Assembly (NCBI GenBank): GCA_016186955.1
Contig: JACPKP010000011.1
Location: forward strand, 12,477-76,476
Direction: 5' to 3'
From: Candidatus Daviesbacteria bacterium
Lineage (GTDB): Bacteria > Patescibacteriota > Microgenomatia > Daviesbacterales > UBA10151
Length of the DNA stretch: 64,000 bases
Of the stretch, positions 6,637 through 48,316 are shown piece by piece (position 1 is the stretch's first letter; each line of letters starts with the position of its first letter). Position numbers and translations under genes: made by a program. Under the pieces are notes generated by a model. That model was given only the letters and a program-made list of their open reading frames with translations, was not told the origin of the DNA and ran no database searches.

Positions 6637-6663
6637 TCTCCTGTATGATGGATTTGATTGTAA

Positions 6664-7395: not shown

Positions 7396-7488
7396 TCCTT
7401 AGCACTTGACAAACCGGCAAACAGGGCTTGATACCTCCTCTTTGTCGGTTTGAGTTAGACACAAATTGTAGTATTTTGAGTATAGTAT

Positions 7489-8733: not shown

Positions 8734-9003
8734 CTTCTGGCCATCCATAGCCTTATAAGGTCTGCTCTACGGTTTTTGCAGTGCTTTATCAAATGTAAAA
8801 ATCTGAATTTCTTCGATTTCTGATTTGGCTAACAAGAAACAATCAACTAAGCTCAGCTTTTTCTTCCTATAATTTTTTAAACTTTTTTTGAAAATGTCTC
8901 CATCTTGCACAGAGAAATATGACGCTGTAAGTATTGATTCAAGTTTATCAATAATCTGGAACCTGGGAAACTTATAGTATTTAGACAGGGCAAAGTGAAT
9001 CTA

Positions 9004-9130
9004 CACCGCTTTAAAAAGCGGTGCATCTTCCTGTCATTCCCGCGAAGGCCTGCCTTGCCGGCAGGCAGGCGGGAATCCATAATTTCATTCATCCCCAGCT
9101 TTAAAAAGCTGGGGCTTTCTGAAATGACAG
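9004..9130. repeat. Nested GC-rich palindromic element
   Basis: Two gctttaaaaagc hairpins (caccgctttaaaaagcggtg and ccccagctttaaaaagctgggg) flank gcctgccttgccggcaggcaggc. An outer ctgtcattcccgc / gcgggaat / gaaatgacag pairing encloses them. The GC palindrome is related to the repeats at 11430 and 13525. Confidence 0.6.
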
Positions 9131-9179
9131 TAAATCCGTAGTACTCTCGAACAATTATAGAAAGATTATCAGTCTTAAA

Positions 9180-9635
9180 TTAAGATTCTATTGATGACTC
9201 TTCTGGATATCTTTTTCTTGTGTTCATAAATATAGGGCCTAAACCAACAATTAATGCTCCTGCGGCTGCTCCACCCCCAACCATAACTCTAGCCAAACCC
9301 CATGGTCTATCTTTTTGAGCTTGCTCTTCATATTTAGCTATTAACTCACTGGCGGGAACTCCTTGATCAAGTTTGACACAAACTTCTGTTGGATTCTTGA
9401 GGGAATAAACTGGTGGATCTAACCGGGTCAACACTTTCTCGCATTTATTTTTCTCAAAGTTAAATCTATACTCTCCAGAAGTTAAACCATCCGCTCCACC
9501 TGCGACTAACACTCCTCCACCTATCAAACAAATTCCAAACCAATTTAATTTTACCCTCTTAATTTCTTTGCCTAAATTTCTCCCGAATTCGATCATAATG
9601 TTGGGAATTGTATATTGAATTGATTGTCTTGTCAA
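9180..9635 (-). CDS. Hypothetical membrane protein
   Basis: Long ORF with two hydrophobic Gly-rich segments. Confidence 0.35.
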   Translation of the reverse strand: MTRQSIQYTIPNIMIEFGRNLGKEIKRVKLNWFGICLIGGGVLVAGGADGLTSGEYRFNFEKNKCEKVLTRLDPPVYSLKNPTEVCVKLDQGVPASELIAKYEEQAQKDRPWGLARVMVGGGAAAGALIVGLGPIFMNTRKRYPEESSIES

Positions 9636-9688
9636 CTATGAGACTGACGCTTGAATTTTTAGTGTAATTACATAATAATAAAAGAGCT

Positions 9689-10033
9689 ATGGGAGTAATC
9701 ATTTTAGCTGTGATCGTAGGTTTGGGTATTGGCTATTTTGCCACTCAAAATACTAACCAGATTAGTTTATATTTTGGTCCTTATGCTGTCTCAAATACTC
9801 CTCTTTATCTTGTAGTAATAAGCGCCTTGCTTATGGGATTGCTTCTTGCTTGGATCTTTTCTTTAGTCAACTCATTTTCTTCTAAGATTACTCTGCACGG
9901 AAAAGAGAATAAAATTAAAGAAGATGAGAAAACTATTGCAGAGCTTACTAAAGAAATTCACCAGCTCGAGCTTGATAATACTCGTTTGAAAGAAAAGTCA
10001 GGAGAGGGAAAAAACGATGATAAATCTCTATGA
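9689..10033 (+). CDS. Small membrane protein with C-terminal coiled coil (LapA/DUF1049-like)
   Basis: Two TM helices (IILAVIVGLGIGYF, LYLVVISALLMGLLLAWIF) followed by a charged coiled coil. Confidence 0.35.
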   Translation: MGVIILAVIVGLGIGYFATQNTNQISLYFGPYAVSNTPLYLVVISALLMGLLLAWIFSLVNSFSSKITLHGKENKIKEDEKTIAELTKEIHQLELDNTRLKEKSGEGKNDDKSL

Positions 10034-10491
10034 AGAGTCTTTTAGCAAAACTGTGGCGGCTGCTTAAACTCCCCAAACACATTCAACTTAATATCATGAG
10101 ACTTACCCAAGATCAATTCTTAGTTGGAACAACAGGCATTGTCTTCAATAACAAAAATGAGGTTTTACTTTTTAAACATACCTATAGACAACATCAATGG
10201 AGCTTGCCCGGTGGTTATATGAAAGCAACAGAACATCCCTCTGAAGGCCTCGATAGAGAGATCGAAGAAGAGTCTGGACTGATTGTAAGCATTGATAAGG
10301 AAATAAAAATCAGAGCAGACAGGGAAACAGCAAGATTGGATATTGCATACATTGGCGCTTATATTGGTGGAAGGTTTAAATCCAGTAGCGAAGTGTCTGA
10401 CGCCAGATTTTTCTCTTTTGAAAATTTACCCCTTTTGCCTAAAAATCAGCTACTTATGATCAAGGAGGCTCTGCAAATGAAAGTCACTTAA
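10030..10491 (+). CDS. NUDIX hydrolase
   Basis: Nudix box GGYMKATEHPSEGLDREIEEESGL (Gx5Ex7REuxEExGu). Overlaps the upstream gene by 4 nt. Confidence 0.65.
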   Translation: MKSLLAKLWRLLKLPKHIQLNIMRLTQDQFLVGTTGIVFNNKNEVLLFKHTYRQHQWSLPGGYMKATEHPSEGLDREIEEESGLIVSIDKEIKIRADRETARLDIAYIGAYIGGRFKSSSEVSDARFFSFENLPLLPKNQLLMIKEALQMKVT

Positions 10492-10503
10492 CATCTAAAT
10501 GTG

Positions 10504-10827
10504 TCATCTAAACCCGGCTAAATATAATATCAAGCCTACAATTATAGCAATTACCAGCATTGAAGACAGTCCTCCAAAAGCCAATATTCCTAAAACTGAT
10601 AGTACCCATAAAATGAACAATACACCTGCTATTTCTTTAAAAGGACTGGGTAAGACACCAATTACCGATGAAATAACAAGCAGGATTAGAATATTCCATA
10701 GAGTAATTGGTTGACCATTTATGTTAAATAAAATCAAATCAGGGATAGGAAAGGCGCCAACGCTTAAATACCCTACAAACCAAAGAATGATCAAAATGAC
10801 GAGTAAAGCTTCAAGCATTTGAATCAA
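10504..10827 (-). CDS. Hypothetical polytopic membrane protein
   Basis: Three to four hydrophobic helices. Overlaps the next gene on the same strand. Confidence 0.35.
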   Translation of the reverse strand: MIQMLEALLVILIILWFVGYLSVGAFPIPDLILFNINGQPITLWNILILLVISSVIGVLPSPFKEIAGVLFILWVLSVLGILAFGGLSSMLVIAIIVGLILYLAGFR

Positions 10828-11266
10828 CTTTTTTATTTACTTCGTCTGGGGTAACCGGTTTAATAAATTGCAAAAGATTAACTAACCCATATGCCAAAAG
10901 TAAATATACCATCATGGCCACAAAAGTTGACCACTCAATTACAGGACCTTCATCAACAGATGTTTTAATAATTCCCCTGAAAGGGAGTGCAAGGGGAGCG
11001 CTTAAAGAATAAATTAAATTAACAAACCCGCTGGGATACGCTCCAGACATCCTCAGAAATATTCTAAATGCCAGCAAAAATTCAATAACACCTAAGATAT
11101 ACCAAATAACCTGATAGGTACGAAAAATTATTTTTTTCTTTTCAAATACTTTTTGAGGATGCTCAGTTTGTATAGGGGGAGGAGTTATGGTTTTTGTTGT
11201 TTGTGTAACTTGAACCGGAGCAGACTTTGATACTGTTGTTACTTCTTGAGCTTCTAATTGTGCCAT
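10811..11266 (-). CDS. Hypothetical membrane protein (YGGT-like?)
   Basis: Two TM helices flank a FLRMSGAYP loop. Family assignment is weak. Confidence 0.3.
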   Translation of the reverse strand: MAQLEAQEVTTVSKSAPVQVTQTTKTITPPPIQTEHPQKVFEKKKIIFRTYQVIWYILGVIEFLLAFRIFLRMSGAYPSGFVNLIYSLSAPLALPFRGIIKTSVDEGPVIEWSTFVAMMVYLLLAYGLVNLLQFIKPVTPDEVNKKVDSNA

Positions 11267-23544: not shown

Positions 23545-23663
23545 TATATTAAATTTTCAATTTTTAGTTTTTAATTTTTAATGAATTTTCAATAATTATT
23601 TTTCTAAACATTGGAACATTTGAATTTGATTTAAAATTTTAAATTTCAAATTAAAAATTATCT

Positions 23664-26013: not shown

Positions 26014-26625
26014 TCAGATTTCAGAATTCGAATTTCGGACATCAGATATTAAAAGCAGGTATTCCCTGTTTCCTCCGCTTCCCAAAATCGGTGACTCAAT
26101 AGAATTAACAATATTGAATGATAAATTATGAATTTTATCTTTAACACTGTTTACAACCTCTTCCAATTCCTCATCTTTTACAACTCCTTTTACTCTTTGC
26201 TGTTCAAAAGCCTCATATTGGGGCTTAAGTAAGGCAATAATGATTCCGTCTTTTTTCAAAAACTTTCTCACAACCGGAAGCACTAATTCCAACTTAGTCC
26301 ACCCCGCATCAATGGTAATAAGATCCACTTTATCCACCTCGCCACCATCTAAGGTGTTTTCAGACCCACCCTCCAGGTGAGGCAAATGCAATATGTTTGT
26401 GCGTTCCATCACCACCACCCTGGGATCATTCCTCAGCTTCCATGCCAACTCACCATAAGAGGTATCCACTGAATAAATTTTTGCTGCCCCATTTTGCAAA
26501 AGACAGTCCACAAACCCGCCAGTTGAAGACCCAACATCCAAACAACTGAAATTTTTAATTTTTAATTTGAAATTTTCAATTGCATGCTGGAGTTTAATCC
26601 CACCGCGGGAAACAAATTGATTCAT
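26014..26625 (-). CDS. tlyA: TlyA-family rRNA 2'-O-methyltransferase (FtsJ fold, no S4 domain)
   Basis: VSRGGIKLQHAIENF and SAM motif CLDVGSSTGGFVDCLLQNGAAKIYSVD. Confidence 0.6.
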   Translation of the reverse strand: MNQFVSRGGIKLQHAIENFKLKIKNFSCLDVGSSTGGFVDCLLQNGAAKIYSVDTSYGELAWKLRNDPRVVVMERTNILHLPHLEGGSENTLDGGEVDKVDLITIDAGWTKLELVLPVVRKFLKKDGIIIALLKPQYEAFEQQRVKGVVKDEELEEVVNSVKDKIHNLSFNIVNSIESPILGSGGNREYLLLISDVRNSNSEI

Positions 26626-29995: not shown

Positions 29996-30003
29996 TAGGG
30001 ATA

Positions 30004-30031
30004 GTGTAAAGTGTAAAGTGTAAAGTGTAAA
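30004..30031. repeat. Heptanucleotide tandem repeat (GTGTAAA)x4
   Basis: gtgtaaagtgtaaagtgtaaagtgtaaa, 8 nt upstream of the ATG of 29354..29995 (minus strand). Confidence 0.8.
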
Positions 30032-30040
30032 GTAGTAACC

Positions 30041-32820: not shown

Positions 32821-32915
32821 GGATGTCAGATGTCAAAAATCGGATTTCGGATCAGTACAATTTTATCCGATTTATCCGAGATCTGATTTCCGATATCCGA
32901 AATCCGAACTTGGCG

Positions 32916-34076: not shown

Positions 34077-34443
34077 GGGGATGTATAGTTTCGACAAGTC
34101 GGCACTTTAAAAACTGCAAGCCGTTTAGGGAACATTAAACGTTAAATACTGTTTCAAAACGTAAACGCCAATTTATTTGGTCGTTCCAGTGACCGCGTAG
34201 CATACGCTTACGCCTAACCGGTGCTTTAGAAATTCTTCCTCCTGATGGGAATCTAAGGTATATACACAGTCGGGATGCAAAATTTAAAGGTGCAGGTTGA
34301 TCCTTAAATTTTAAAGACAACTCAATCTGGTATCAGTTTTCCTGCTAATTGGTTACAATTGATATCTAAATATTAATTAGCTAAGCTTGTAGAAGTTTTT
34401 GAATAACTTACTTGGACGAGGGGTCACACCCTCCATCTCCACC
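34077..34443 (+). ncRNA. ssrA: tmRNA (SsrA)
   Basis: 5' GGGGATGTATAGTTTCGACAAG (tRNA-like acceptor and TTCGAC D-loop analogue). 3' GGACGAGGGGTCACACCCTCCATCTCCACC compares with the E. coli 3' end GGACGGGGGTTCAAATCCCCCCGGCTCCACCA. Internal tag ORF ...gca tac gct tac gcc taa (…AYAYA*). smpB lies 0.9 kb away. Confidence 0.7.
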
Positions 34444-34517
34444 CGATAATCCCATACTTTGAGTATGGGATTTTTGAAGATTGACATTTCCCAAATAAAA
34501 AAGTATATTCCCTAACA

Positions 34518-38757: not shown

Positions 38758-38856
38758 AGGTAATTTTCAATTTACAATTAATTTTTAAACTGTTTAAAAA
38801 TTAAAACATTGATTATTGATTGAAAATTAGAAATTAAAAATTGAAAATTAAATTAA

Positions 38857-40518
38857 TTATTTTTTCTCAATATTATAGAGTGGGGACTTAATTGAGACAT
38901 ACCCCGGGGCCCGCAGGTTAAAGATGGTTTTAAAATCAGCCCCTGAAATGGTGATTGAACCTGTTTGGGTTGCAAAAGTCACGCTAGCTGTGCTTCCTCC
39001 CTCTGAATACACCACCGATGCACTGCTGACAGAGGTGACTGCCCCACCATGCTGGTTGGCTTTATCCCTCATCTCTGATATGGAAAACGGGTTTCCGCTC
39101 CAGCAGGATGTATCTACCGGGGAAATCCTATCCCGCGAGTCCCCGGACTGATAAACAATCCAGGAATTTAATATATCCGACATCTCTTCGTTATTCAACC
39201 AGGGATGGGACTTGCCGCAGGACGCTCCCAAACGGTCCTTATACCAACCTTTATAAAACCAGGGTGAACCGGCGATTTTTTCAAAAGCATCACCTGTCCA
39301 GCAATTCTTTGAACCGCATTTTGTATCCCAACCGCCATTGTTGGTATAACCTCCTGTTGTGGAAGAATACTGGGCGTTTGGCCCGCCTTCCAAAACCCAC
39401 CCTTTTGTCTCATTTACAGCCTCTTCCCAAGCTCCGCCTTTGTTTGAGTCTTTATAAACCTGGCACGACTCAGTCGGGCAGATTGAACCGCCCTGGCGCA
39501 CAGCATAAGTCCTGGCTGCCACAGCCTGGGCTTTGAGGGCTTCTTTGGGAAACGAGTTGGGCATTTCATAAATCCTTTTCATATACTCATCTTCAAAATT
39601 CCTACTCCCGTACCCTGATACATTGATGGTTGCAGGCACATTATAGCTTTTATTAAGTGAGGCCCCGGGATAATAGGCTGCCAAAATCTGCTCCGCATTT
39701 TGCCCTGAATCAGCCCTGCCTTTGGCGCCGTATTGGCTCATCCCGTTGCGGTGGGTATAAGCGCCAAACGAAAACATGGCAAAAGCAGGTGAAAAACCAG
39801 GGTTGAAATCAGGCCTGGCATTACTATCATCTGCCAACGGGACATCACCAACAGAGGTGGTAAAGGTGCCTGATTTGGCAGCTAATATCGCCTGTTGCCT
39901 GGCGGAGAGTTCCGCAATTTTACCGGAGAGATCTGCCTGATAATCTTTGGCTTTTTTTATTTCCCCACCTAAAAACACGGCGTTTTTATCTACCTGAGCC
40001 TGCAGGGAAGCAAGGGAAGCCTTGTCTTTTTCCAGTTTTTCTTTCTGGCTGAGCAGATCAACAATCTCGTCCGTAATAGAAGTTATTACTTTCTGGTCCT
40101 CCCTGGTTGCTGCAAGGCGGTAGGAGAGTTCCCGGAAAATACTGGCTGAGGATTGTGAGGAAAATAAAACAGTTAAGGGGTTGGTGTGGTAAGAGCGGAT
40201 GTAATATGAGCGAACCCGCTGTTCAAGCAAAACCTGCTGAAAGGCTATTTTTTCTGTCCTGGCTTCAAGGTCTTTTTCCTTCCGGGAGATTTTATAAGAA
40301 AGGCTGTAAAGGGAAGCCTGGATTTGGGCAAGCTGGCGCTTCAAAGAATCCAGCTGGCCTTCCAAAGGTTTGGTGGCATCAACGGACATCTTTTTAGCCT
40401 TCTCAAGCTCATTTATCTGTTTTTGCAGGTCCTCTACCTCATCAGCATGAATGGGAAAAGTAACAAGTAACAAGTAACAAGTAACAAGTAACAAAAATGG
40501 AAGAATAGTTTTTCTCAT
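38857..40518 (-). CDS. SpoIID/LytB-domain cell-wall protein with N-terminal coiled coil (EnvC-like)
   Basis: Signal peptide, long coiled coil, SpoIID signature EALKAQAVAARTYAVRQ. Confidence 0.6.
   Translation of the reverse strand: MRKTILPFLLLVTCYLLLVTFPIHADEVEDLQKQINELEKAKKMSVDATKPLEGQLDSLKRQLAQIQASLYSLSYKISRKEKDLEARTEKIAFQQVLLEQRVRSYYIRSYHTNPLTVLFSSQSSASIFRELSYRLAATREDQKVITSITDEIVDLLSQKEKLEKDKASLASLQAQVDKNAVFLGGEIKKAKDYQADLSGKIAELSARQQAILAAKSGTFTTSVGDVPLADDSNARPDFNPGFSPAFAMFSFGAYTHRNGMSQYGAKGRADSGQNAEQILAAYYPGASLNKSYNVPATINVSGYGSRNFEDEYMKRIYEMPNSFPKEALKAQAVAARTYAVRQGGSICPTESCQVYKDSNKGGAWEEAVNETKGWVLEGGPNAQYSSTTGGYTNNGGWDTKCGSKNCWTGDAFEKIAGSPWFYKGWYKDRLGASCGKSHPWLNNEEMSDILNSWIVYQSGDSRDRISPVDTSCWSGNPFSISEMRDKANQHGGAVTSVSSASVVYSEGGSTASVTFATQTGSITISGADFKTIFNLRAPGYVSIKSPLYNIEKK
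40460..40494. repeat. Heptanucleotide tandem repeat (GTAACAA)x5, coding-strand TTGTTAC, inside signal-peptide codons of 38857..40518
   Basis: gtaacaagtaacaagtaacaagtaacaagtaacaa encodes LLVTCYLLLVT. Confidence 0.85.
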
Positions 40519-40579: not shown

Positions 40580-40876
40580 ATGCATAGAACTATACTGCAG
40601 GTTCCACTACCTAAAGATCTTAAAGAAGGGGCTGAAAAAGCAGCCTTGGATGCAGGGTTCTCTTCTTTACAAGAAGTTTTGAGGGTGTTTATGAAAAAAT
40701 TTGCAAACAAAAAAATAGATCTATCATTTGAAGAAGAAAAAGTTGTTTACCTTTCTGAAAAAGCTGAAAAAAGATATACTAAGGCTATGGAAGATTTCAG
40801 AAAAGGTAAAAATGTCTATGAAGCAAAAGATGTAGATGATCTTTTAAAACAACTGCATAGCTACAGTGAAAATTAA
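40580..40876 (+). CDS. Putative antitoxin
   Basis: 98-aa acidic protein overlapping the RelE-like gene start. Confidence 0.35.
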   Translation: MHRTILQVPLPKDLKEGAEKAALDAGFSSLQEVLRVFMKKFANKKIDLSFEEEKVVYLSEKAEKRYTKAMEDFRKGKNVYEAKDVDDLLKQLHSYSEN

Positions 40877-41129
40877 ATTCTACAAACAATTCGTTAAACA
40901 TCTTACCCAAAGAGTTAAACCCAACCCAAGTTTACTGAAAAAGTGTGATGAAAGAATCGCTTTATTTATTAAAAACCCCAAAGATCCATTACTAAAAGAC
41001 CATAAGTTAATAGGGAGGAAAGAAGACTTTAGGGCATTTTCAATTACAGGCGATATTAGAATTATCTACCGACAAGGAGAGGATTACATCTATTTTATTG
41101 ATATCGGCTCCCATAACCAAGTATATTGA
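40866..41129 (+). CDS. RelE/ParE-family toxin
   Basis: ...DHKLIGRKEDFRAFSITGDIRIIYRQGEDYIYFIDIGSHNQVY matches the RelE/StbE C-terminal pattern. Confidence 0.55.
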   Translation: MKIKFYKQFVKHLTQRVKPNPSLLKKCDERIALFIKNPKDPLLKDHKLIGRKEDFRAFSITGDIRIIYRQGEDYIYFIDIGSHNQVY

Positions 41130-41173: not shown

Positions 41174-42973
41174 TTGCCCCTCTTCAAAATGCATGGTAAG
41201 CAAAGCTTGCCATTTCATGGTAAGCTGGGGTTAATGTCCAAACTGATATCAATTTTAGCAATACAATTGTTTGGTTTATGTATTATTTTAACTCCTACTA
41301 TAATTTTTGCTGATGAATCTTGCAATGTAAGTGGTGGGGGGCAACAAGGTACGGTTACAATTACCACTAAATTACTAAACCCAGTTATACCTCCTAATTA
41401 TGAAATAACATTCGAGCTTGATCCAAACGCTTTAGATATATTACGAGACCACAATATTGGTTTAGAAACCGGAGGTGGTTTTGGTGGAAGTTCAGTATAC
41501 ACAAACCCTATATCTGTAACCACAAGTAATATTGCTTTTGTAATAAGAGCTGGAAACATCAACCCTGATAACAACGATTCTTTAAGTAAATTCACTGACC
41601 CTGGAAAACATCAAATATCTATATACGAAGCTGCAGGAGGAAGTTCCGGAAGTACCGGGCGATCCAACATATGTTTAGCTTCAGCTGTTTTTGATTATGA
41701 AATTACAAACCCGAGGGTTTTAGAATGCAGTGGACAAATCACGGATAGCTCTACTTCTCAGGGGATTAATGGTGTAGTAATTGAAGTTTATGACGGAGCT
41801 GCTGCCAGCCCAACCCGTACATATAACGTCACCTCTGATGATGGTAAGTATGCTTTCAGACCATCTTCCGGTGGTTTTGGACCTGGCTCCCAACAAACAC
41901 ATAAGGTCATTTTTAAAAACAACGATTACCAAGATTATATTGTTGATTATCTATTACCTGTTACCCCACAAGCCTGTCCAGGAAATATTTCTCTAAAATC
42001 AGTGGCTTTAAAAGGATATGTTTGTGATAAAGGAACTTGCAGAGAATCAAACCCCGGAGAATCATCTAAATACCTGGACAATAATATGTGTAGTAAAGAT
42101 TGTGGTTTATATATTTATGATACGGGGAGATTATATTGTAGACCTGCTTTACCCAATGAAACAACAGGAATAATTTACAGTAAATCAGAATGCGAGGCAA
42201 AAACTCCCCTCGCAGGTACAGATAATTGTGTATATAACAAAACAGTAAATAAATGCGTATGCAACCCTAACTCTGTATCAGGTGGACAACCTCTTACAGA
42301 ATGCCTTAAAAAAGTAACTTCTTCAATTTATTCAGGCATAGACTGTTCAAAGCCTGAAAATAAAGACAAGTGCTCAACTTCTGCAGGACAGACATGTAAT
42401 ATCAATACCAATGAGGTTATAAAAATAGAAAATATTACCGCTAAAAAAGAAGACATGCCTAACACCAGGACCAACCCCATCTCAACATGCAGCGACGGAA
42501 CAGACCTGCGGGAAGTAGACAAAAGAACTGATAACCCTAACAGTTGTAACCCTGAAGCATCCTGCTACAAGGCTGTGACAGGTACAGGAGGTTTTGCTGC
42601 ATATTTTTGCTACAGGGAGCAAAAGACAGTAGCTGCTAAAACTACATATAGTGACAAAAATGGTAATCCGATAGATATGGACTCTAAGAATTTAGGTGTT
42701 TATACTGCCATTGGGTGTATCCCCACTGAGCCCTCAGCTCTAATTACTAAGCTTTTGACATTTGCTGCGGGAGGGGCTGGGGGGATTGCCCTTTTGCTTA
42801 TGATCTTTGGGGCTTTCAGGATGACGACCTCGGCCGGCAACCCGGAGAGCTTAAAAGCAGGCCAGGAACAATTTTCCTCCGCGGTAATAGGGCTGTTGTT
42901 TATTATTTTTGCAGTGTTGTTGCTGCAGATTATCGGGGTTGATATACTGGGATTGCCTGGTTTCACCAAATAA
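41174..42973 (+). CDS. Large secreted Cys-rich protein ending in a VirB2/TrbC-like pilin module (adhesin-pilin fusion)
   Basis: Signal peptide, then about 480 aa with more than 30 Cys. The C-terminal roughly 90 aa (TFAAGGAGGIALLLMIFGAFRMTTSAGNPESLKAGQEQFSSAVIGLLFIIFAVLLLQIIG) are homologous to the five downstream small TM-loop-TM proteins. Confidence 0.45.
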   Translation: MPLFKMHGKQSLPFHGKLGLMSKLISILAIQLFGLCIILTPTIIFADESCNVSGGGQQGTVTITTKLLNPVIPPNYEITFELDPNALDILRDHNIGLETGGGFGGSSVYTNPISVTTSNIAFVIRAGNINPDNNDSLSKFTDPGKHQISIYEAAGGSSGSTGRSNICLASAVFDYEITNPRVLECSGQITDSSTSQGINGVVIEVYDGAAASPTRTYNVTSDDGKYAFRPSSGGFGPGSQQTHKVIFKNNDYQDYIVDYLLPVTPQACPGNISLKSVALKGYVCDKGTCRESNPGESSKYLDNNMCSKDCGLYIYDTGRLYCRPALPNETTGIIYSKSECEAKTPLAGTDNCVYNKTVNKCVCNPNSVSGGQPLTECLKKVTSSIYSGIDCSKPENKDKCSTSAGQTCNINTNEVIKIENITAKKEDMPNTRTNPISTCSDGTDLREVDKRTDNPNSCNPEASCYKAVTGTGGFAAYFCYREQKTVAAKTTYSDKNGNPIDMDSKNLGVYTAIGCIPTEPSALITKLLTFAAGGAGGIALLLMIFGAFRMTTSAGNPESLKAGQEQFSSAVIGLLFIIFAVLLLQIIGVDILGLPGFTK

Positions 42974-43095
42974 TCTCAAAACTCAAATATCAAATGATAA
43001 ATCTACATCTTAAATTTTAAATCTTCGCAACCTTAAGATTTTAGATTTTAATTGTAGTTTTGACATTTGAGATCTCAGATTTGAGATTTAATATT

Positions 43096-43440
43096 ATGAA
43101 CAAGCTTGCTTTGACAATTGACAACAAAACTATTTCTCCCCCAACTAGCTTTAAACCTGAATTTACTGACCTTGGCTCTGTTATTACAGCTTCATTAAAC
43201 TTAATTTTTTATATTTCAGGGATGCTTTTGTTTATCTGGTTGGCCTGGGGGATCATGCAATATATCTTTGCAGGAGGGAATAAAGAAGCCCTGGCCAAAG
43301 CCCGGACCAGGATTATCTATGCCTTGGTCGGATTCATTATAGTAGTCCTGTCTTTCACCCTCAGTGAATACATCAAAGCTGTACTTAGCCCAACCAGTTC
43401 AATCCCGCAACCGCCAATCACACCAATCACACCACCATGA
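43096..43440 (+). CDS. VirB2/TrbC-like pilin paralog 1
   Basis: Start set at MNKLAL. TM - FAGGNKEALAKARTRI - TM. Confidence 0.45.
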   Translation: MNKLALTIDNKTISPPTSFKPEFTDLGSVITASLNLIFYISGMLLFIWLAWGIMQYIFAGGNKEALAKARTRIIYALVGFIIVVLSFTLSEYIKAVLSPTSSIPQPPITPITPP

Positions 43441-43805
43441 TTAAAAAGTTAGCCTTCATTAGTATAACGGTTATAACGTTTATAAATATTATATTTACAC
43501 ACCCTGTCTATGCTGAAGACCTTAAAAAACAATATGGTTTTGGCTGGATCACCAGTTTGGGGGATGTTATCAGCCGTAACATTGTCCCGGCCGGTTTTGA
43601 GATTGCCGGGATTGCACTCCTTTTTTATATAGTCATAGCAGCCATAAAGTACATGACCTCAGGCGGTGATAAAGAAGCTGTAGCTTCTGCCCGTGGCATG
43701 ATTACCCATTCTGTGATAGGATTTTTAATGCTGATATTTTTATTTTTATTTTTGCAGTACATCCTGCCCGCAATCGGGCTTAAAAATTTTATTATTGTAA
43801 GATAA
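43437..43805 (+). CDS. VirB2/TrbC-like pilin paralog 2
   Basis: Signal peptide (…THPVYA), then TM - MTSGGDKEAVASARGMIT - TM. Confidence 0.5.
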   Translation: MIKKLAFISITVITFINIIFTHPVYAEDLKKQYGFGWITSLGDVISRNIVPAGFEIAGIALLFYIVIAAIKYMTSGGDKEAVASARGMITHSVIGFLMLIFLFLFLQYILPAIGLKNFIIVR

Positions 43806-44125
43806 TGGCATACCTGGCAAAAAGTTTTCAAGATATTATCGGACAGATTACCCCTCCTGACCCTATCCAGGACATAGGCCGGGGAGGCCGGGGAATAAAT
43901 ACTGTCTTAAGCAATATCCTGACCATAATTTATATATTCGGGACAATCATTTTCCTATTTATGATTGTCATAAGTGCGGTTCAGTGGATTGTCTCAGGCG
44001 GTGATAAAGAAGTTGTCCAAAAAGCCCGCTCAAGGATAACTAATGCTATAATAGGTATAGTGCTTTTAGCGCTGGCAAGGTTTATTGTTTCGCTGATAGG
44101 CTCAATCACAGGGTTTAAAATCTAA
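43805..44125 (+). CDS. VirB2/TrbC-like pilin paralog 3
   Basis: TM - WIVSGGDKEVVQKARSRIT - TM. Confidence 0.5.
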   Translation: MAYLAKSFQDIIGQITPPDPIQDIGRGGRGINTVLSNILTIIYIFGTIIFLFMIVISAVQWIVSGGDKEVVQKARSRITNAIIGIVLLALARFIVSLIGSITGFKI

Positions 44126-44158
44126 ACAGTATATTGACAAACCTTAAATAACCTGCAT

Positions 44159-44587
44159 ATGATAATATTAATGAGATCAAAAGTTCTTAGTGTATTAGCT
44201 GTCGGTGCTGCTGTATTGCTAAATCCTATCTCTGTCTTTGCGCAGGATGATGTTAGAAATATTGGTTCTATAGCGCCATCTGCCAGCGGTCTTACGGGAA
44301 TTAATCCATCAACTACCTCTTTAGGTGATTTAATCAGAAATGCCCTTGTTATTATTTATATACTTGCAGCAGTAGCAGTTTTAGCTATGCTGGTTTTTGG
44401 TGCCTTCCAATGGATCACATCAGGAGGAGACAAGGAAGCTGTACAAAAAGCCAGAAGCAGGATAACTGCTGCTTTAGTCGGTATGGGTATTTTGGCTTTA
44501 GCATTATTTATCACTGTACTCATGGGACAAATATTGAATATCAATGTCTTAAATCTTCCAACCTTACCAACACTCGGTAATCCATAA
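44159..44587 (+). CDS. VirB2/TrbC-like pilin paralog 4
   Basis: Signal peptide (…VFAQ), then TM - WITSGGDKEAVQKARSRIT - TM. Confidence 0.5.
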   Translation: MIILMRSKVLSVLAVGAAVLLNPISVFAQDDVRNIGSIAPSASGLTGINPSTTSLGDLIRNALVIIYILAAVAVLAMLVFGAFQWITSGGDKEAVQKARSRITAALVGMGILALALFITVLMGQILNINVLNLPTLPTLGNP

Positions 44588-44629
44588 ACTCATTTGCCTA
44601 TTTCACTTATTCTGTAGTAATCTTAAGTT

Positions 44630-44932
44630 ATGGATGGGCCTGCCGGAATAAAACAGATACAAGAACTTATTTTGCGGGTAATAAACCTGTCTGTGGGGTT
44701 AGTGTTTTTTGTTTTGGTAATAGTCCTGGCCATAGGCGGGATTAAATTTTTAACCTCCGGGGGTGAGCAGAAAGCTGTCCAATCCGCCAAAAGCATGATT
44801 ACCTGGGGTATCCTGGGAGTTGTTTTTATGGGGCTGGCCTGGTTGATTTTAAGCCTGGTTGAAGCTTTTACAGGAGTCAAGGTAACCCAGTTTAACCTTT
44901 GTGTGTTGTTTCCAGGCGGTGTCTGCCCATGA
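44630..44932 (+). CDS. VirB2/TrbC-like pilin paralog 5
   Basis: TM - FLTSGGEQKAVQSAKSMIT - TM. Confidence 0.5.
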   Translation: MDGPAGIKQIQELILRVINLSVGLVFFVLVIVLAIGGIKFLTSGGEQKAVQSAKSMITWGILGVVFMGLAWLILSLVEAFTGVKVTQFNLCVLFPGGVCP

Positions 44933-45843
44933 TTAGTAAATTTCAAATTTCAAATTTCAAATTTCAAATTTCTTTATTTTTCCTTTTTACTTTTTCCTTT
45001 TTACTTTTTCCTTTACATGCTTTTGCCAGCCATTGTGATGCCTCAGGTAATTTTACCTCACTAAACAGCTACTGCGACCCCTCCACCAACACCATCTGGC
45101 AAGATGAGGTTGACTGCACCCATGCTGACACTGGCACAGCCTGCGCTATCCCCGCACCTGCAACCTGTCTGTACAATGAAACCTGTGACGCAGGACCGGG
45201 CCCTGCCAGCGGGGAACACACTTGCACAGGCACTAACCCAAATGAAGCCGGGCAACCCCAGTGCGGATATAACAGTGCAGTTGACCCTGCCTGCACAGCC
45301 TGCACAGCCAAAACACCTCCTGCGCCACCTGTTCCACCTCCAGCCCCGCCAGCTCCACCTGCTGGCGCCACCCCAACAGCAGCCATAGCTACAGAAAGCG
45401 CTGAGGAAGCAGCCATCAGGCATATGGATACAGGGTTAAAACCTGAGGAATTACCACAAGAAGCAGACGAGAAACCAGGGATCATCCAAATCATAGGGGA
45501 TTTTTTTAGCAATATAGGGAGGTTATTAAACAGAATGGTATCTTTTTTCCAAAATTCTCAGGGTTTGCAAACAGCCGAGCTTCCTGAACAAAATTGTAAA
45601 TCAAGCGATCCTGATAGTGCAGTAAGTAACTTTTTAGGGGATAGTGATTGTAAAGGAATCTATAACAGCACAACACCTGATGAACAAATTTTACCGAATG
45701 GAATAAAAGTCAGGGTTGGTAATATTGATATCCCAAAAACTGAACAGGCGAATGCTAAAGAGGAGGGTTTTGAGGATGCGTTTTTACCTGAAGGATGTAA
45801 TAAAATAACTACCGGTGATTGTAATATACCTATTAGCCCATAG
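44929..45843 (+). CDS. Secreted Cys-rich, Pro-rich protein
   Basis: Start set at MISKF. Signal peptide, Cys-rich module, PAPPVPPPAPPAPPA linker, second Cys-containing module. Confidence 0.4.
   Translation: MISKFQISNFKFQISLFFLFTFSFLLFPLHAFASHCDASGNFTSLNSYCDPSTNTIWQDEVDCTHADTGTACAIPAPATCLYNETCDAGPGPASGEHTCTGTNPNEAGQPQCGYNSAVDPACTACTAKTPPAPPVPPPAPPAPPAGATPTAAIATESAEEAAIRHMDTGLKPEELPQEADEKPGIIQIIGDFFSNIGRLLNRMVSFFQNSQGLQTAELPEQNCKSSDPDSAVSNFLGDSDCKGIYNSTTPDEQILPNGIKVRVGNIDIPKTEQANAKEEGFEDAFLPEGCNKITTGDCNIPISP
44938..44972. repeat. Heptanucleotide tandem repeat (TTTCAAA)x4 inside the first codons of 44929..45843
   Basis: aaatttcaaatttcaaatttcaaatttcaaatttc encodes SKFQISNFKFQIS. Confidence 0.85.
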
Positions 45844-46504: not shown

Positions 46505-48316
46505 ATGGCTGCCCGGGAGTTGGTTATTAGTTCATGGTTTGTAGTTTATAGAAAAATTTTTCTCTTTTTTGTTTTACTTGTTACTTGTTACTTGTTACTT
46601 GTTACTTATCTTCCGCCCGCTTTTGCCCAGGGAACACCTCCTGCAGCAGGTACAACTTCTGCAGCCGGTACAACCCCTGCAGCTGCCCCCTGGAACGCCC
46701 AAAACCAGTCCAATTTCACCTCTCAAACCCTCCAACATGCAATCCTTTGCGACCTGGTATTTATGAGCCCATTGGGCAGGTGTGTCGGCTTTGAAAAAGA
46801 CCCGTCCAAAAAAGACGGTGTTAAAGTAAGCCTGTACGGACCGCAGTTCGGGGGAGCGCTGGGAAGTTTGACTAATATGGCGGTTGCCCTTTACCAACCC
46901 CCAACCTCCACAGTTTATTACCTGGCTGATGTGGCCAAAGGGTTTGGGATTATCACCCCAGCCTATGCCCAGGTTACCGGCTCAGGAGCAGGGATTATAG
47001 AACCTGTTAAAAAACTGTGGGAGGTGATGCGCAATTTTGCTTATCTGGCATTTATTATTATCTTTTTGGCGATCGGTTTTATGATCATGTTCAGGCAAAA
47101 ATTAAACGCCCAGACGGTTTTGACAGTCCAGGCAGCATTACCGGGGCTGGTACTGAGCCTAATCCTGGTATTTTTAAGTTATTTTATTGCAGCTTTTTTA
47201 ATTGACCTGGCTTTTTTAAGCGTCCAGATCCTGGCTTGGCTTTTTATACAAAACGGGCTGGCAAACTCTTTTGGTGATGCAGCGGGAATACAAAGCCTGG
47301 CCCAAAATTCTAATATCCTGGAACTATTTAAAAACAGCTTCCGGTTTGAAGCATTTGGAGAGGTTACGGGTGGAGTATCCGGTACTGTAAATTCAGTGTT
47401 TGGCGGGTCTGCTGCAGGACCAAATGCTTTGGCTATTATCATACCTGCAATTATCGGTTCAGTTATTGCATTTTTTATTTTTCCACCTGGAGGTTTGGTC
47501 GCACTTGGTGTTACTGCTGGTGGTGGAGCTGCTGCCGGCCTTTTGGCGCCTCTTATAATAGGCCTGCTCGTGCCTTTAATATTAATTATTGCCTTGGCTA
47601 TCCAGTTTTTTAAACTGCTTTTTAAGCTGATCATGGCTTATGTCATGTTGCTGGTGACAACAATCCTCGGCCCGCTGCTGATTTTAGTCAGCGCAGTACC
47701 CGGTAAAGGAACGTCATTGTCTTTTTGGTGGAAAAACCTGCTGGGTAATGCCCTGGTTTTTCCTGCTGTATTCGGGACTTTTTTATTTGCAGGGATGATC
47801 CTGGCCACAGACCCTTCAGCTTGGAAAGCCAGCCCCCCGCTTTTTGGCGGGCTCTCCACCGAACTTTTGAGGCTGATCATCGCTTACGGGATAATACTGG
47901 GCACACCAGCTGTACCTGATATGGTAAAAAAGATGATAGGAGCAGGGGATCTTGGAGAGATAGGCAAAACAGGCGCAGCCGGGTTCTTTGCAGGGTTTGG
48001 GGTAGGCAAGGGTGCAGGGACAGCTGGAGTTAATAGATTACTGGCGCCAACTATGCAACTTAGAAATGAGCGCAGAACCTTGCAAGAACAGGCCGCTCTT
48101 GGTAAGTTAGGTCCATTGGGTGAGGCAAGGCTTGCGGCGCTTCAAAGAGGCGCTTATAATGTTTATCCAACAGGGAAAAAGAACAAACAGGGTGAATATG
48201 AGAGGGATACCGAAGGTAACCTGGAAACCGAATCAAGGGGTAGAACATGGTGGCCAAGCAAGATCCAAAGATGGCTGGTTGAAACCGGAAATAAAGCCTG
48301 GTCAGGAAAAAAATAA
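46505..48316 (+). CDS. Polytopic Gly-rich membrane protein, VirB6/TrbL-like candidate
   Basis: Signal peptide, at least six TM helices and Gly-rich loops. Position within the T4SS-like locus. Family call by topology only. Confidence 0.35.
   Translation: MAARELVISSWFVVYRKIFLFFVLLVTCYLLLVTYLPPAFAQGTPPAAGTTSAAGTTPAAAPWNAQNQSNFTSQTLQHAILCDLVFMSPLGRCVGFEKDPSKKDGVKVSLYGPQFGGALGSLTNMAVALYQPPTSTVYYLADVAKGFGIITPAYAQVTGSGAGIIEPVKKLWEVMRNFAYLAFIIIFLAIGFMIMFRQKLNAQTVLTVQAALPGLVLSLILVFLSYFIAAFLIDLAFLSVQILAWLFIQNGLANSFGDAAGIQSLAQNSNILELFKNSFRFEAFGEVTGGVSGTVNSVFGGSAAGPNALAIIIPAIIGSVIAFFIFPPGGLVALGVTAGGGAAAGLLAPLIIGLLVPLILIIALAIQFFKLLFKLIMAYVMLLVTTILGPLLILVSAVPGKGTSLSFWWKNLLGNALVFPAVFGTFLFAGMILATDPSAWKASPPLFGGLSTELLRLIIAYGIILGTPAVPDMVKKMIGAGDLGEIGKTGAAGFFAGFGVGKGAGTAGVNRLLAPTMQLRNERRTLQEQAALGKLGPLGEARLAALQRGAYNVYPTGKKNKQGEYERDTEGNLETESRGRTWWPSKIQRWLVETGNKAWSGKK
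46574..46608. repeat. Heptanucleotide tandem repeat (TTACTTG)x4.9 (same unit as 40460-40494) in signal-peptide codons of 46505..48316
   Basis: ttacttgttacttgttacttgttacttgttactta encodes LLVTCYLLLVTY. Confidence 0.85.

What the first reader, a model, noticed from the sequence alone, without database searches (positions are those of the whole stretch)
40460..40494. Identical frameshift-prone heptamer repeat (TTGTTAC)5 in the signal peptides of two different envelope proteins
The same 7-nt unit is repeated 5 times in the first about 25 codons of the SpoIID/LytB-like gene (minus strand, 40460-40494). It is repeated about 4.9 times in the first about 35 codons of the VirB6-like polytopic membrane protein (plus strand, 46574-46608). 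In both, the coding strand reads ttgttac... and translates to LLVTCYLLLVT. A 7-nt unit is not a multiple of 3, so slipped-strand gain or loss of one unit switches the gene out of frame. Only a change of 3 units restores it. This is the architecture of contingency (phase-variable) loci, here apparently serving as a shared cassette for two surface-related genes 6 kb apart.
Basis: seen in the sequence. Interest (0 to 1): 0.8.

Follow-up and report, generated by a model that had tools for sequence, protein, structure and literature searches.

The report
Heptamer repeats that encode signal peptides
Two neighbouring cell-envelope genes of a groundwater Daviesbacterium (a CPR bacterium) each have the hydrophobic core of their export signal written by about five perfect copies of the same 7-base unit. 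This is one example of a widespread and apparently undescribed habit of these bacteria: it has the architecture of a frameshift on/off switch, but in the population data available it behaves as a stable, slowly turning-over building block.

Summary
(TTGTTAC) occurs in 5.3 perfect copies at 40458-40494 (- strand, SpoIID-domain gene) and 4.9 perfect copies at 46574-46607 (+ strand, polytopic VirB6-like gene). Both encode LLVTCYLLLVT as the whole h-region of a signal peptide. A change of ±1 or ±2 units truncates both proteins.

The phenomenon is wider than the finding. In 1.26 Mb of Microgenomates DNA, 58 of 73 tandem arrays have period 7. Their length peaks at 30-37 nt. They concentrate within ±150 nt of start codons (42 of 58, about 17 expected). 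Housekeeping spacers such as dnaG-rpoD carry them too.

Arrays turn over on evolutionary time: homogenised unit variants, copy-number changes, and hypervariable signal peptides on mature domains at least 90% identical. One relative carries an allele that is out of frame and would be restored by +1 unit, with a rearrangement breakpoint exactly at the array.

Sister perfect arrays are nevertheless invariant: 7 of 7 assemblies in one species and more than 30 contigs in another. Copy numbers stay at 6 or below, and every coding array is in frame.

Verdict: these are intrinsically slippery microsatellites recruited as signal-peptide modules. High-frequency phase variation is unproven and is not supported by the proxies tested. 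The shared unit is specific to this genome.

The parts
40458..40494 (-). (TTGTTAC)x5.3 perfect heptamer array. It encodes LLLVTCYLLLVT, the entire h-region of the SpoIID-like signal peptide, and ends 5 residues before the ...IHA|DE cleavage-type site.
38857..40518 (-). SpoIID/LytB-domain secreted protein gene, 553 aa (NCBI HYW46_06725). The mature N-terminus ADE[VI]EDLQKQI is conserved in orthologues while the signal peptide is hypervariable.
46574..46607 (+). (TTGTTAC)x4.9 perfect heptamer array in inverted orientation to the first. It encodes LLVTCYLLLVT, the h-region in front of YLPPAFA|QG. A degenerate homologous array is present in a 47%-identical orthologue (L224).
46505..48316 (+). Polytopic membrane protein, 603 aa (HYW46_06780), 'VirB6/TrbL-like' by context only. 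It is divergent from the SpoIID gene across the pilin cluster, a layout conserved in 23 loci.
44938..44972 (+). (AAATTTC)x5.0 perfect array encoding KFQISNFKFQIS, the n-region of the third signal peptide. The same 'ATGATTA..(AAATTTC)~5' gene start occurs in another Daviesbacterium (L005), where its length is invariant in 7 of 7 assemblies.
44973..45014 (+). (TTTTTCC/TTTTTAC) array, period 7 x5.4 or period 14 x3.1, encoding LFFLFTFSFLLFPL, the h-region in front of HAFA|SH.
44929..45843 (+). Secreted Cys-rich protein gene, 304 aa, no Pfam hit. Its whole signal peptide is built from two heptamer arrays.
41174..44932 (+). Cluster of five T4SS_pilin (PF18895) genes lying between the two divergent array-bearing genes. 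Context only.
42972..43089 (.). Two imperfect heptamer arrays in inverted orientation (AATCTCA / AGATTTG) that form a long intergenic hairpin: -30.4 kcal/mol, z = -5.7.
30003..30038 (.). (AGTGTAA)x5 array filling the 45-nt spacer between a NUDIX gene and a 213-aa gene. It is non-coding and next to genes that are not surface genes.
23552..23659 (.). Two AT-rich imperfect heptamer arrays (23552-23582 and 23629-23659) in the dnaG-rpoD spacer, next to housekeeping genes.

Best explanation
The two (TTGTTAC)~5 tracts belong to a lineage-wide class of heptanucleotide microsatellites in Microgenomates (Davies-, Curtiss-, Levy-, Collier- and Chisholmbacteria).

Shown:
- Heptamers are the dominant tandem repeat in these genomes.
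- They pile up at a preferred length of about 31-37 nt.
- They survive almost only in non-coding spacers and in the first ~50 codons of genes.
- T-rich units read hydrophobic in all three frames and make up the complete h-region of Sec-type signal peptides. K/R-containing units make up n-regions.
- They turn over on evolutionary time through unit homogenisation, copy-number change and replacement, so signal peptides differ completely between strains whose mature proteins are at least 90% identical.
- One array marks a rearrangement joint.

Inferred:
- Arrays arise and are kept pure by replication slippage or short-tract conversion.
- Selection removes them from constrained coding sequence and caps coding arrays at h-region length.
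- In this genome the old VirB6-like array was re-homogenised, and its unit was copied into the SpoIID signal peptide, or expanded there in parallel.

Each tract is intrinsically frameshift-prone, so OFF mutants must arise at a raised rate. The arrays are still best seen as signal-peptide building modules kept ON by purifying selection, not as switches maintained for phase variation.
For: - Period 7 accounts for 58 of 73 arrays in 1.26 Mb. Perfect-array lengths are bimodal, with a second mode at 30-37 nt and nothing longer.
- 42 of 58 arrays lie within ±150 nt of a start codon against 17 expected (p=1e-11). Gene bodies hold 13 against 37 expected.
- 13.1% of 252 hydrophobic N-termini carry period-7 signal, against 3.2% or less for other periods and 0.5% for internal regions.
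- Coding arrays end 4-8 residues before AxA-type sites.
- All coding arrays are in frame.
- Non-coding arrays flank dnaG-rpoD and a NUDIX gene.
- Orthologues mostly show decayed period-7 signal.
- Signal peptides are unrelated within 90% clusters.
- Three alleles carry TCACT+TA, +AT and +TT units at 4.7, 4.4 and ~3 copies at the same aligned site.
- L224 has a degenerate TTGTTAC array at the same position.
- Consensus copy number is invariant in 7 of 7 assemblies and on more than 30 contigs.
- SpoIID is conserved in 408 loci, so it is probably not dispensable.
Against: - A purely tolerated mutational product does not obviously explain the sharp length mode in non-coding arrays.
- It does not explain the 11-fold excess of identical units within a genome.
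- It does not explain perfect conservation of the same unit at the same gene start across deep lineages: AGTGCAA in Curtiss- and Chisholmbacteria, and ATGATTA+(AAATTTC)5 with unalignable flanks.
- An OFF-configured allele restorable by +1 unit exists as the consensus in at least 2 samples.
- Low-copy heptanucleotides can be highly mutable.
- Minority variants are invisible in consensus assemblies, and the window's own species has a single assembly.
- The observation that all coding arrays are in frame is partly ascertainment, because OFF alleles would be classed as non-coding.
Confidence: 0.5

Rival explanations
1. True contingency loci. Slipped-strand gain or loss of single heptamer units switches SpoIID, the VirB6-like protein and the 44929 gene ON and OFF at high frequency. 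This would diversify the envelope and pilus apparatus of an episymbiont against hosts or phages, and selection would maintain the purity of the tracts.
For: - The tracts are non-triplet, perfect and 5'-proximal in three exported or membrane genes of one T4SS-pilin neighbourhood.
- Truncation after ±1 or ±2 units is clean.
- Arrays are strongly enriched at gene starts and promoter-proximal DNA.
- The L218/L219 allele is out of frame and restorable by +1 unit.
- Copy number differs between species at orthologous arrays: AGTGCAA at 2.5 to 4.6 copies.
- 6 copies of a heptanucleotide gave a more than 10^4-fold higher frameshift rate in P. fluorescens.
- One scaffold gap and one contig end fall inside arrays.
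Against: - No copy-number polymorphism was seen in 7 of 7 assemblies or on more than 30 contigs of species with perfect arrays. neuO, by contrast, ranges from 3 to 53 repeats with 66% OFF, and hmw has 13-38 copies.
- Copy number never exceeds 6.
- The same arrays flank housekeeping genes.
- Most orthologues have decayed arrays, so mutability is not maintained.
- SpoIID is a universally conserved single-copy gene in the group.
- The first two candidate OFF alleles were artefacts.
Confidence: 0.25
2. Recombination joints. Identical arrays at different gene starts act mainly as short homologous sites for ectopic recombination or conversion. In the window the two inverted 35-bp arrays could invert the 6-kb pilin cluster and swap the promoters and N-terminal heads of the two flanking genes. 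Elsewhere such events move 5' modules between genes.
For: - The L218/L219 breakpoint lies exactly at the array edge, with 99.7% identity downstream and random identity upstream.
- Arrays of one genome share units 11 times more often than arrays of different genomes (p=1.7e-5).
- The 'ATGATTA+(AAATTTC)5' module is shared by different genes with unalignable flanks.
- The window arrays are inverted, in divergent genes, and read in the same codon register. One third of crossover registers give both chimeras in frame.
- 4 of 129 homology breakpoints fall at arrays against 0.3 expected.
Against: - All four breakpoint hits come from one gene family, so they represent one or two events.
- No inverted arrangement of the pilin cluster was seen in 23 loci.
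- No recombinase gene lies in the segment.
- 35 bp is near the lower limit for RecA-type exchange (general knowledge).
- The reciprocal product was not found.
Confidence: 0.1
3. Cis-acting element. The arrays act at the DNA or RNA level at gene 5' ends, for example as operator-like heptad arrays for a repeat-reading DNA-binding protein, as unstructured or AU-rich translation-initiation regions, or as hairpin elements. On this view the coding content is secondary.
For: - The length mode of about 33 nt is the same in coding and non-coding arrays.
- Arrays lie immediately upstream of or across start codons.
- The same units are conserved at the same gene starts across deep lineages.
- Inverted arrays form a strong hairpin.
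- From general knowledge, heptad arrays are read by RHH proteins such as omega of pSM19035.
Against: - 42 different units occur among 58 arrays, so there is no common sequence for a binder.
- Coding arrays match signal-peptide n- and h-region chemistry and end at a fixed distance from cleavage sites, which argues for peptide-level selection.
- No Rfam family matches.
- No candidate reader protein was identified.
Confidence: 0.07
4. Chance or an assembly artefact.
For: None, apart from the fact that the window's species is known from a single assembly.
Against: - 0.05 matches are expected against 7 found.
- A Markov control gives no period-7 array longer than 17 nt.
- The same kind of array is reproduced in dozens of independent assemblies made with different assemblers.
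Confidence: 0.01

Closest known systems
Neisseria opa genes: CTCTT pentamer repeats in the leader-peptide coding region (from general knowledge, not tested here)
   Same: A non-triplet SSR lies inside the signal-peptide coding region of surface proteins. The repeat itself encodes the hydrophobic core. Several genes in one genome share the same unit. Unit gain or loss shifts the frame.
   Different: opa tracts vary between and within strains, and OFF alleles are common. Here copy number is 6 or below and invariant in every proxy tested. The unit is 7 nt, and the organism is a non-pathogenic groundwater CPR bacterium.
E. coli K1 neuO: (AAGACTC)n heptanucleotide repeat in the 5' coding region (PMC13001214)
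   Same: A heptanucleotide unit sits at the 5' end of an ORF, and full-length translation occurs only in one of three length classes.
   Different: neuO has 3-53 repeats, 65.6% of genomes are OFF and 7% of cells in one culture are non-modal. Here there are about 5 copies, all ON, with no polymorphism seen. The neuO repeat is not a signal peptide.
H. influenzae hmw1A/hmw2A 7-bp promoter repeats and other heptanucleotide SSRs (PMC2651432, PMC8262952)
   Same: 7-bp tandem units lie upstream of surface-protein genes. This resembles the non-coding (class C) arrays that lie just upstream of start codons here.
   Different: hmw has 13-38 copies that vary between strains and grade expression. Here arrays of about 5 copies also flank housekeeping genes such as rpoD and dnaG.
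Evolved heptanucleotide hypermutable locus pflu0185 in P. fluorescens (bioRxiv 10.1101/2024.05.01.592015)
   Same: A heptanucleotide near the 5' end expands from 1 to 6 or more copies by slippage, and the frameshift rate rises steeply with copy number. This shows that about 5 copies can be slippery.
   Different: That was a laboratory selection for switching at one locus in one organism. No such selection or switching is shown here.
Cyanobacterial STRR (short tandemly repeated repetitive) heptamers (general knowledge; mentioned in papers)
   Same: It is a lineage-wide family of tandem heptanucleotide arrays with several unit types per genome, mostly non-coding, of unknown origin.
   Different: It occurs in a different phylum, and STRR are not known as building blocks of signal peptides. 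No relationship was tested.
Borg tandem repeats that create new protein regions (PMC9879509)
   Same: Rapidly evolving perfect tandem repeats are recruited into coding sequence to create new low-constraint protein segments.
   Different: In-frame Borg repeats have units divisible by 3 and create disordered regions. Here the unit is 7 nt and the product is a targeting signal.

Membership tests
SSR-mediated contingency (phase-variable) locus | Tandem repeat with a unit not divisible by 3 inside the 5' part of an ORF, or in promoter-proximal DNA | tested here: met
   Period 7, 5.3 and 4.9 perfect copies, at codons 9-20 and 24-35. ±1 or ±2 units truncate the proteins.
SSR-mediated contingency (phase-variable) locus | Repeat number differs between closely related strains or within a population, tested at the window's own tracts | not testable with these tools
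   There is only one assembly of this species among 15 billion proteins; the next relatives are 82% and 80% identical. No read data are available.
SSR-mediated contingency (phase-variable) locus | Repeat number differs between closely related strains, tested at sister perfect arrays of the same class | tested here: not met
   (AAATTTC)4.9 is 34 nt in 7 of 7 assemblies at 98-99.99% identity. The (TCACTTA)4.7 N-terminus is identical on more than 30 contigs. (CGCTATA)~4 is identical in 3 assemblies. These are consensus sequences only, so minority variants would not be visible.
SSR-mediated contingency (phase-variable) locus | Both ON and OFF genotypes occur in nature | tested here: inconclusive
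   One OFF-configured allele (L218/L219) is restorable by +1 unit, but it arose by rearrangement at the array and not by a unit change. Two other candidates were artefacts. All 25 coding arrays are in frame, although this is subject to ascertainment bias.
SSR-mediated contingency (phase-variable) locus | Tract long enough for high slippage rates | tested here: inconclusive
   There are about 5 copies here. Documented heptanucleotide loci have 13-53 copies, yet 6 copies gave a more than 10^4-fold rise in P. fluorescens. No rate is measurable here.
Sec-type cleavable signal peptide | Basic n-region, 7-15 residue hydrophobic h-region, and a c-region with small residues at -3 and -1 (AxA) | tested here: met
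   Checked by inspection only, with no predictor available: MRK-TILPF-LLLVTCYLLLVT-FPIHA|DE...YRK-IFLFFVLLVTCYLLLVT-YLPPAFA|QG; MISK...-LFFLFTFSFLLFPL-HAFA|SH. The cleavage-site position agrees with the conserved mature N-terminus of 120 orthologues.
SpoIID/LytB (PF08486) | Significant match to the family profile | tested here: met
   E=6.8e-17, 62.3 bits against a cut-off of 23.
VirB6/TrbL (T4SS inner-membrane component) | Significant match to the TrbL/VirB6 profiles | tested here: not met
   The window protein has no Pfam family, and none of 23 homologues hits TrbL. There are only weak TrbL hits on neighbouring or related genes in other loci and a UniRef name on P0295. The label is contextual, based on proximity to five T4SS_pilin genes.
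Cyanobacterial STRR heptamer family | Dispersed tandem heptanucleotide arrays of a few unit types in filamentous cyanobacteria | not tested
   This is a resemblance in unit length and dispersal only. The organism is a Daviesbacterium and no sequence relationship was examined.

The most novel reading that the evidence does not exclude
Microgenomates possess a dedicated heptanucleotide-repeat system at gene starts that acts in two ways. It would be a true phasome, with low-copy tracts switching envelope and T4SS-pilus genes ON and OFF. It would also be a set of portable homologous joints through which promoters and signal-peptide heads are exchanged or inverted between genes. That would be the first contingency-locus and 5'-module-shuffling system described in the Candidate Phyla Radiation. 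It would also explain the genome-specific unit families, the fixed ~33-nt length, and the conservation of units at the same gene starts across candidate phyla.
Probability: 0.2. Interest if true: 0.8.

Novelty: new variant of a known kind. Interest (0 to 1): 0.6.

Why it matters
CPR bacteria are uncultivated episymbionts. How they vary their surface, pili and secreted proteins is largely unknown. Five full-text searches found no paper linking them to simple-sequence repeats or phase variation.

The data show three things:
- One repeat class, the heptamers, dominates their tandem repeats.
- That class writes the targeting signal of roughly one in eight exported or membrane proteins in the sampled loci.
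- It makes signal peptides the fastest-evolving part of otherwise conserved genes.

This is a concrete route for de novo birth and renewal of signal peptides from microsatellites. It also gives a ready list of candidate switch sites that can be tested directly in existing read data. A practical warning follows for annotators: start-codon calls, 'truncated' proteins and scaffold gaps cluster at these tracts.

Tried and rejected
1. **Exact-protein look-up of the window's SpoIID** found nothing. The species is represented once only, so no allelic series for the actual tracts could be obtained.
2. **Candidate OFF alleles among orthologues.** P0024 and P0124 have identical DNA and differ only in start calling. 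P0146 is cut by a scaffold gap. The 40-aa 'members' of a SpoIID cluster are unrelated XRE-like proteins.
3. **Metagenome scan for (TTGTTAC)3.** It returned 80 loci from unrelated organisms (GC 0.19-0.71, up to 16 copies, mostly non-coding, many at contig ends). The unit is therefore not CPR-specific and the scan gave no same-locus variants.
4. **A conserved SpoIID/VirB6-like 'shared cassette'** is rejected: 22 other genomes with the same divergent layout share 11 nt or less.
5. **Same-unit arrays always in inverted orientation (invertible-segment signature)** is rejected. L020 and L034 pairs are direct, and L044 is mixed.
6. **Known RNA families or riboswitches at the arrays:** none.
7. **Contig ends enriched at arrays in the L206-L217 set:** only one of twelve contigs ends in an array. 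The other breaks lie in a hypervariable part of the 775-aa gene.
8. **VirB6/TrbL membership by Pfam:** no hit, either for the protein or for 23 homologues.
9. **Literature:** five searches found no description of heptamer arrays in CPR or Microgenomates.
Full report
**Observation**

The sequence is as described. TRF reports a period-7 array at 40458-40494 (5.3 copies, 100% matches) and another at 46574-46607 (4.9 copies, 100%). The 14-mer TTGTTACTTGTTAC matches seven times, all inside these two tracts, where 0.05 matches are expected from shuffles. On their coding strands both read ...CTT GTT ACT TGT TAC TTG TTA... and translate to LLVTCYLLLVT.

Tract 1 occupies codons 9-20 of ORF 38857-40518 (- strand, 553 aa, Pfam SpoIID E=7e-17). 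Tract 2 occupies codons 24-35 of ORF 46505-48316 (+ strand, 603 aa, many predicted membrane spans, no Pfam hit). Simulated gain or loss of one or two units truncates the first protein to 20-32 aa and the second to 84-98 aa, and ±3 units restore the frame.

**Organism and neighbourhood**

The window comes from a Candidatus Daviesbacteria genome (CPR, Microgenomates). The two proteins are 100% identical to NCBI HYW46_06725 and HYW46_06780.

The two genes are divergent and flank a 6-kb block:
- a toxin-antitoxin pair;
- five T4SS_pilin (PF18895) genes;
- two secreted proteins.

This divergent SpoIID / pilin cluster / polytopic-protein layout is conserved in 23 related loci.

In both genes the tract is the entire h-region of a classical n-h-c signal peptide:
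- MRK TILPF LLLVTCYLLLVT FPIHA|DE
- ...YRK IFLFFV LLVTCYLLLVT YLPPAFA|QG

In 120 SpoIID orthologues the mature N-terminus ADE[VI]EDLQKQI is conserved and starts exactly after that site.

A third gene in the block (ATG at 44929, 304 aa) also begins with heptamers. (AAATTTC)5 encodes the n-region KFQISNFKFQIS. (TTTTTCC/TTTTTAC)x5.4 encodes the h-region in front of HAFA|SH.

**The finding is one instance of a much larger phenomenon**

I fetched 80 loci around SpoIID orthologues from species-representative genomes (1.19 Mb) and added the window.

- *Period.* Of 73 tandem arrays with at least 3 copies and at least 85% matches, 58 have period 7 and two have period 14.
- *Length.* Perfect period-7 tracts have a bimodal length distribution. 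Counts decay from 14 to 22 nt. A second mode then holds 19 tracts of 30-37 nt, and nothing is longer. A Markov control gives nothing above 17 nt.
- *Position.* With a simple gene map (1421 genes, 91.6% coding), 25 arrays lie in the first 50 codons (8.9 expected), 17 lie within 150 nt upstream of a start (8.0 expected) and 13 lie in gene bodies (37 expected). The 5' enrichment has p=1e-11.

Three classes are visible:
- **(A)** T-rich units forming h-regions, such as LVTCHLSLVT, ISLFTIHYSLFT, FLFLVSCFLFLV and LHLSLITYHLSL. They end 4-8 residues before an AxA-type site.
- **(B)** K/R-containing units forming n-regions, such as KFQISNF, VQSAKCK and SEVRVQR.
- **(C)** Non-coding arrays that fill the spacer immediately upstream of a start codon.

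Among 252 genes with a hydrophobic N-terminus, 13.1% show period-7 signal of at least 19/28. The figure is 3.2% or less for periods 5, 6, 8, 9 and 10, 1.9% for non-hydrophobic N-termini and 0.5% for internal regions.

The class C arrays of the window are not next to surface genes. They sit in the dnaG-rpoD spacer and between a NUDIX gene and an unknown gene. Array density is 5.4 per 100 kb in Daviesbacteria and 7.0 in Curtiss-/Levybacteria. It is patchy elsewhere, with arrays in 9 of 48 loci.

**Evolutionary behaviour**

*Signal peptides evolve fast.* In both gene families the signal peptide is by far the fastest-evolving part. Within clusters of proteins at least 90% identical, the signal peptides can be unrelated, for example P0045 vs P0137, P0064 vs P0142, and five versions in one cluster.

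*Most arrays are decayed.* Most Daviesbacteria SpoIID orthologues show only degraded period-7 signal, 19-22 of 28 against 10-16 for control periods. Only the window has a perfect tract.

*An allelic series in Curtissbacteria.* In a well-sampled Curtissbacteria lineage, three alleles of the same gene carry homologous arrays at the same aligned position. All three share a TCACT core and have a homogenised tail: TCACTTA x4.7, TCACTAT x4.4 and TCACTTT ~x3. All remain in frame. This is concerted evolution plus copy-number change.

*Same units across deep lineages.* (AGTGCAA)n sits at the 5' end of a VirB6-like paralogue in three Curtissbacteria and a Chisholmbacterium, with 3.0, 2+2, 2.5 and 4.6 copies.

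*The VirB6-like tract is old.* A 47%-identical orthologue (L224) has TTGTTAC AAGTTAT CTGTTAC TTGTTAC at the same place, followed by the same PAFAQ c-region. The 77-80% identical orthologues have unrelated signal peptides. The window tract is therefore a re-homogenised old array.

**Tests of phase variation**

The window's species exists as one assembly, so its own tracts cannot be tested. I used sister arrays of the same class as proxies.

1. A perfect (AAATTTC)4.9 tract in the species of L005 is 34 nt in all seven independent assemblies that span it (98-99.99% identity, several samples and years). The indels that do separate those strains are not unit changes. One Logan contig ends inside the tract.
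2. The perfect (TCACTTA)4.7 h-region tract of L033 gives an identical N-terminus on more than 30 contigs; P0427 alone is on 27.
3. An imperfect (CGCTATA)~4 tract is identical in three assemblies. Degenerate arrays in VirB6-like clusters are invariant over up to 13 contigs.
4. Two apparent N-terminal truncations were artefacts, one from start calling and one from a scaffold gap that begins inside a degenerate array.
5. One real OFF-type allele was found. In L218 and L219 (at least two samples, one contig of 140 kb) the SpoIID gene is 99.7% identical to L033 from the array onward, but 22% identical (random) upstream. The breakpoint lies exactly at the array edge, and atpC is the new neighbour. 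No start codon lies in the SpoIID frame. The only ATG overlaps the atpC stop (ATGA) and is out of frame. Adding one unit or removing two gives a 542- or 535-aa ORF starting MTSTYHLSLITYHLSLPVRA|DE.

For calibration:
- neuO heptanucleotide tracts range from 3 to 53 copies in 64 genomes, with 65.6% OFF and 7% non-modal cells in one culture (PMC13001214).
- hmw tracts have 13-38 copies (PMC2651432).
- Six copies of a 5' heptanucleotide raised frameshifting more than 10^4-fold in P. fluorescens (bioRxiv 10.1101/2024.05.01.592015).

The tracts are therefore plausibly slippery. Even so, the signature behaviour of contingency loci, length polymorphism and frequent OFF genotypes among close strains, is absent from every proxy at consensus level.

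**The shared unit**

The longest common substring between the first 150 nt of the two genes is 34 nt in the window. It is 11 nt or less in 22 other genomes with the same layout; the between-genome 95th percentile is 10. The sharing is thus a recent event peculiar to this lineage.

It does fit a general pattern. Pairs of arrays in the same locus have the identical unit in 9.1% of cases, against 0.8% for pairs from different loci (Fisher p=1.7e-5). Examples are L044, L020, L034 and L008. About 116 of the 2344 cyclic heptamers could encode an h-region, so identity by chance is of the order of 1%.

The two window tracts are in inverted orientation and in the same codon register. In-register exchange would invert the pilin block and swap the heads of the two genes while keeping both in frame, which happens in one third of registers. 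No inverted arrangement was observed, so this remains inference. The L219 joint shows only that array-edge rearrangement does happen. 4 of 129 homology breakpoints fall at arrays against 0.3 expected, but all four come from that one gene family.

**Most likely mechanism**

*Shown:*
- a lineage-wide class of heptamer microsatellites with a preferred length;
- strong confinement to spacers and gene starts;
- peptide chemistry matched to the n- and h-regions of signal peptides;
- concerted evolution and copy-number change between strains, with the frame preserved;
- stability of the consensus within populations.

*Inferred:*
- The tracts arise and stay pure by replication slippage or short-tract conversion.
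- Purifying selection removes them from constrained coding sequence.
- Purifying selection keeps essential exported proteins in frame.
- It also caps coding tracts at h-region length.

On this reading the tracts are raw material for signal peptides and are intrinsically frameshift-prone, but they are not maintained as switches (confidence 0.5). Adaptive phase variation remains a live rival (0.25). Recombination joints (0.10) and a cis-acting DNA or RNA role (0.07) are minor rivals, and an artefact is excluded for practical purposes (0.01).

**What remains unexplained**

- Why the unit is 7 nt.
- Why the length mode of about 33 nt is the same for non-coding and coding arrays.
- How one unit spreads within a genome.
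- Why the same unit persists at the same gene start across candidate phyla: AGTGCAA, and ATGATTA+(AAATTTC)5 with otherwise unalignable flanks.

These features keep the more novel reading open.

**Comparison with known systems**

The closest analogue in architecture is Neisseria opa, with CTCTT repeats inside the leader-peptide coding region (general knowledge). neuO is the closest in unit length and position, hmw for promoter-proximal 7-bp repeats, and cyanobacterial STRR for a lineage-wide heptamer family. Borg tandem repeats are the closest for recruitment of repeats into new protein segments.

I do not file the tracts as contingency loci, because the polymorphism criterion was not met in the proxies and cannot be tested for the tracts themselves. 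No paper in the library connects CPR bacteria with SSRs or phase variation. I rate this a new variant of a known kind, with interest 0.6.

Noticed in passing
window 40580-41129: A type II toxin-antitoxin pair lies between the SpoIID gene and the pilin cluster: a 98-aa RHH-like ORF with no Pfam hit, overlapping an 87-aa YafQ/ParE-family toxin (PF15738, E=2e-10). Orthologous positions in relatives hold other TA pairs: MazE/PIN in L220 and HicA/HicB in L224.
   Followed up: partly
window 42972-43089: Two imperfect heptamer arrays in inverted orientation form a 118-nt intergenic hairpin (-30.4 kcal/mol, z=-5.7) between the stop of the 599-aa pilin-fusion gene and the next pilin gene.
   Followed up: partly
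window 46640-46683 and 45314-45372: In-frame coding repeats lie directly after two of the heptamer-built signal peptides. One is an 18-nt unit x2.4 (PAAGTT...) in the VirB6-like protein. The other is a 21-nt unit x2.8 (Pro/Ala-rich) in the 44929 gene.
   Followed up: no
window 23552-23659, 26550-26581, 32874-32908, 38819-38852: Further imperfect AT-rich heptamer arrays occur in the dnaG-rpoD spacer, near the FtsJ-like gene start, between tRNA genes, and just downstream of the SpoIID stop codon.
   Followed up: partly
window 46520-46554: There is weak period-7 signal (17/28 matches against 5-10 for other periods) in the n-region of the VirB6-like gene (ELVISSWFVVY). It resembles the ATGGTTC/ATAGTTC-type arrays ('SWFMV') seen at N-termini of both gene families in other Daviesbacteria, so it may be an older decayed array.
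   Followed up: partly
L218 595-625; L219 1283-1313: This is the rearranged SpoIID allele in a Curtissbacterium. atpC is joined to the heptamer array through an ATGA overlap, and the gene is out of frame by one unit. The reciprocal product and the original gene downstream of atpC were not found.
   Followed up: partly
L081 (MFCZ01000018.1) ~1490; L217 start: A scaffold gap (Ns) begins inside a degenerate heptamer array and causes a 'truncated' 502-aa protein annotation (OGE37854.1). A Logan contig ends inside the (AAATTTC) tract. Heptamer tracts are places where assemblies and annotations fail.
   Followed up: yes
L206-L215, the 775-aa gene upstream of SpoIID (L206 3623-5950): This gene is a hotspot of strain heterogeneity in one Rifle population. 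Five contigs end inside it, two have N gaps, and there are 9-43-nt indels around L206 4543-4643.
   Followed up: no
L002, L004, L008-L012 and many others (genome contigs records): Many MAG records titled 'uncultured Gammaproteobacteria' or 'uncultured Pseudomonadales' (binchicken co-assemblies) encode Microgenomates-type SpoIID at 50-81% identity with the CPR pilin-cluster context. The record titles look like mislabels.
   Followed up: no
protein cluster of P0309 (P0428, P0429, P0440): Three 40-aa XRE-like proteins are listed as members of a 90%-identity SpoIID cluster. This is a clustering artefact that could be mistaken for frameshifted alleles.
   Followed up: yes
L142 (Ga0099364_10011841) 2996-11069; L089, L112, L122, L126, L159: An unrelated organism with about 50% GC in one metagenome carries many dispersed (TTGTTAC)n arrays, four of them on one 11.8-kb contig. 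Genome-wide families of this very heptamer therefore exist outside CPR.
   Followed up: no
window 34077-34444: A tmRNA gene (102.6 bits) and seven tRNA genes are present in the window. None is near the arrays of the finding.
   Followed up: yes
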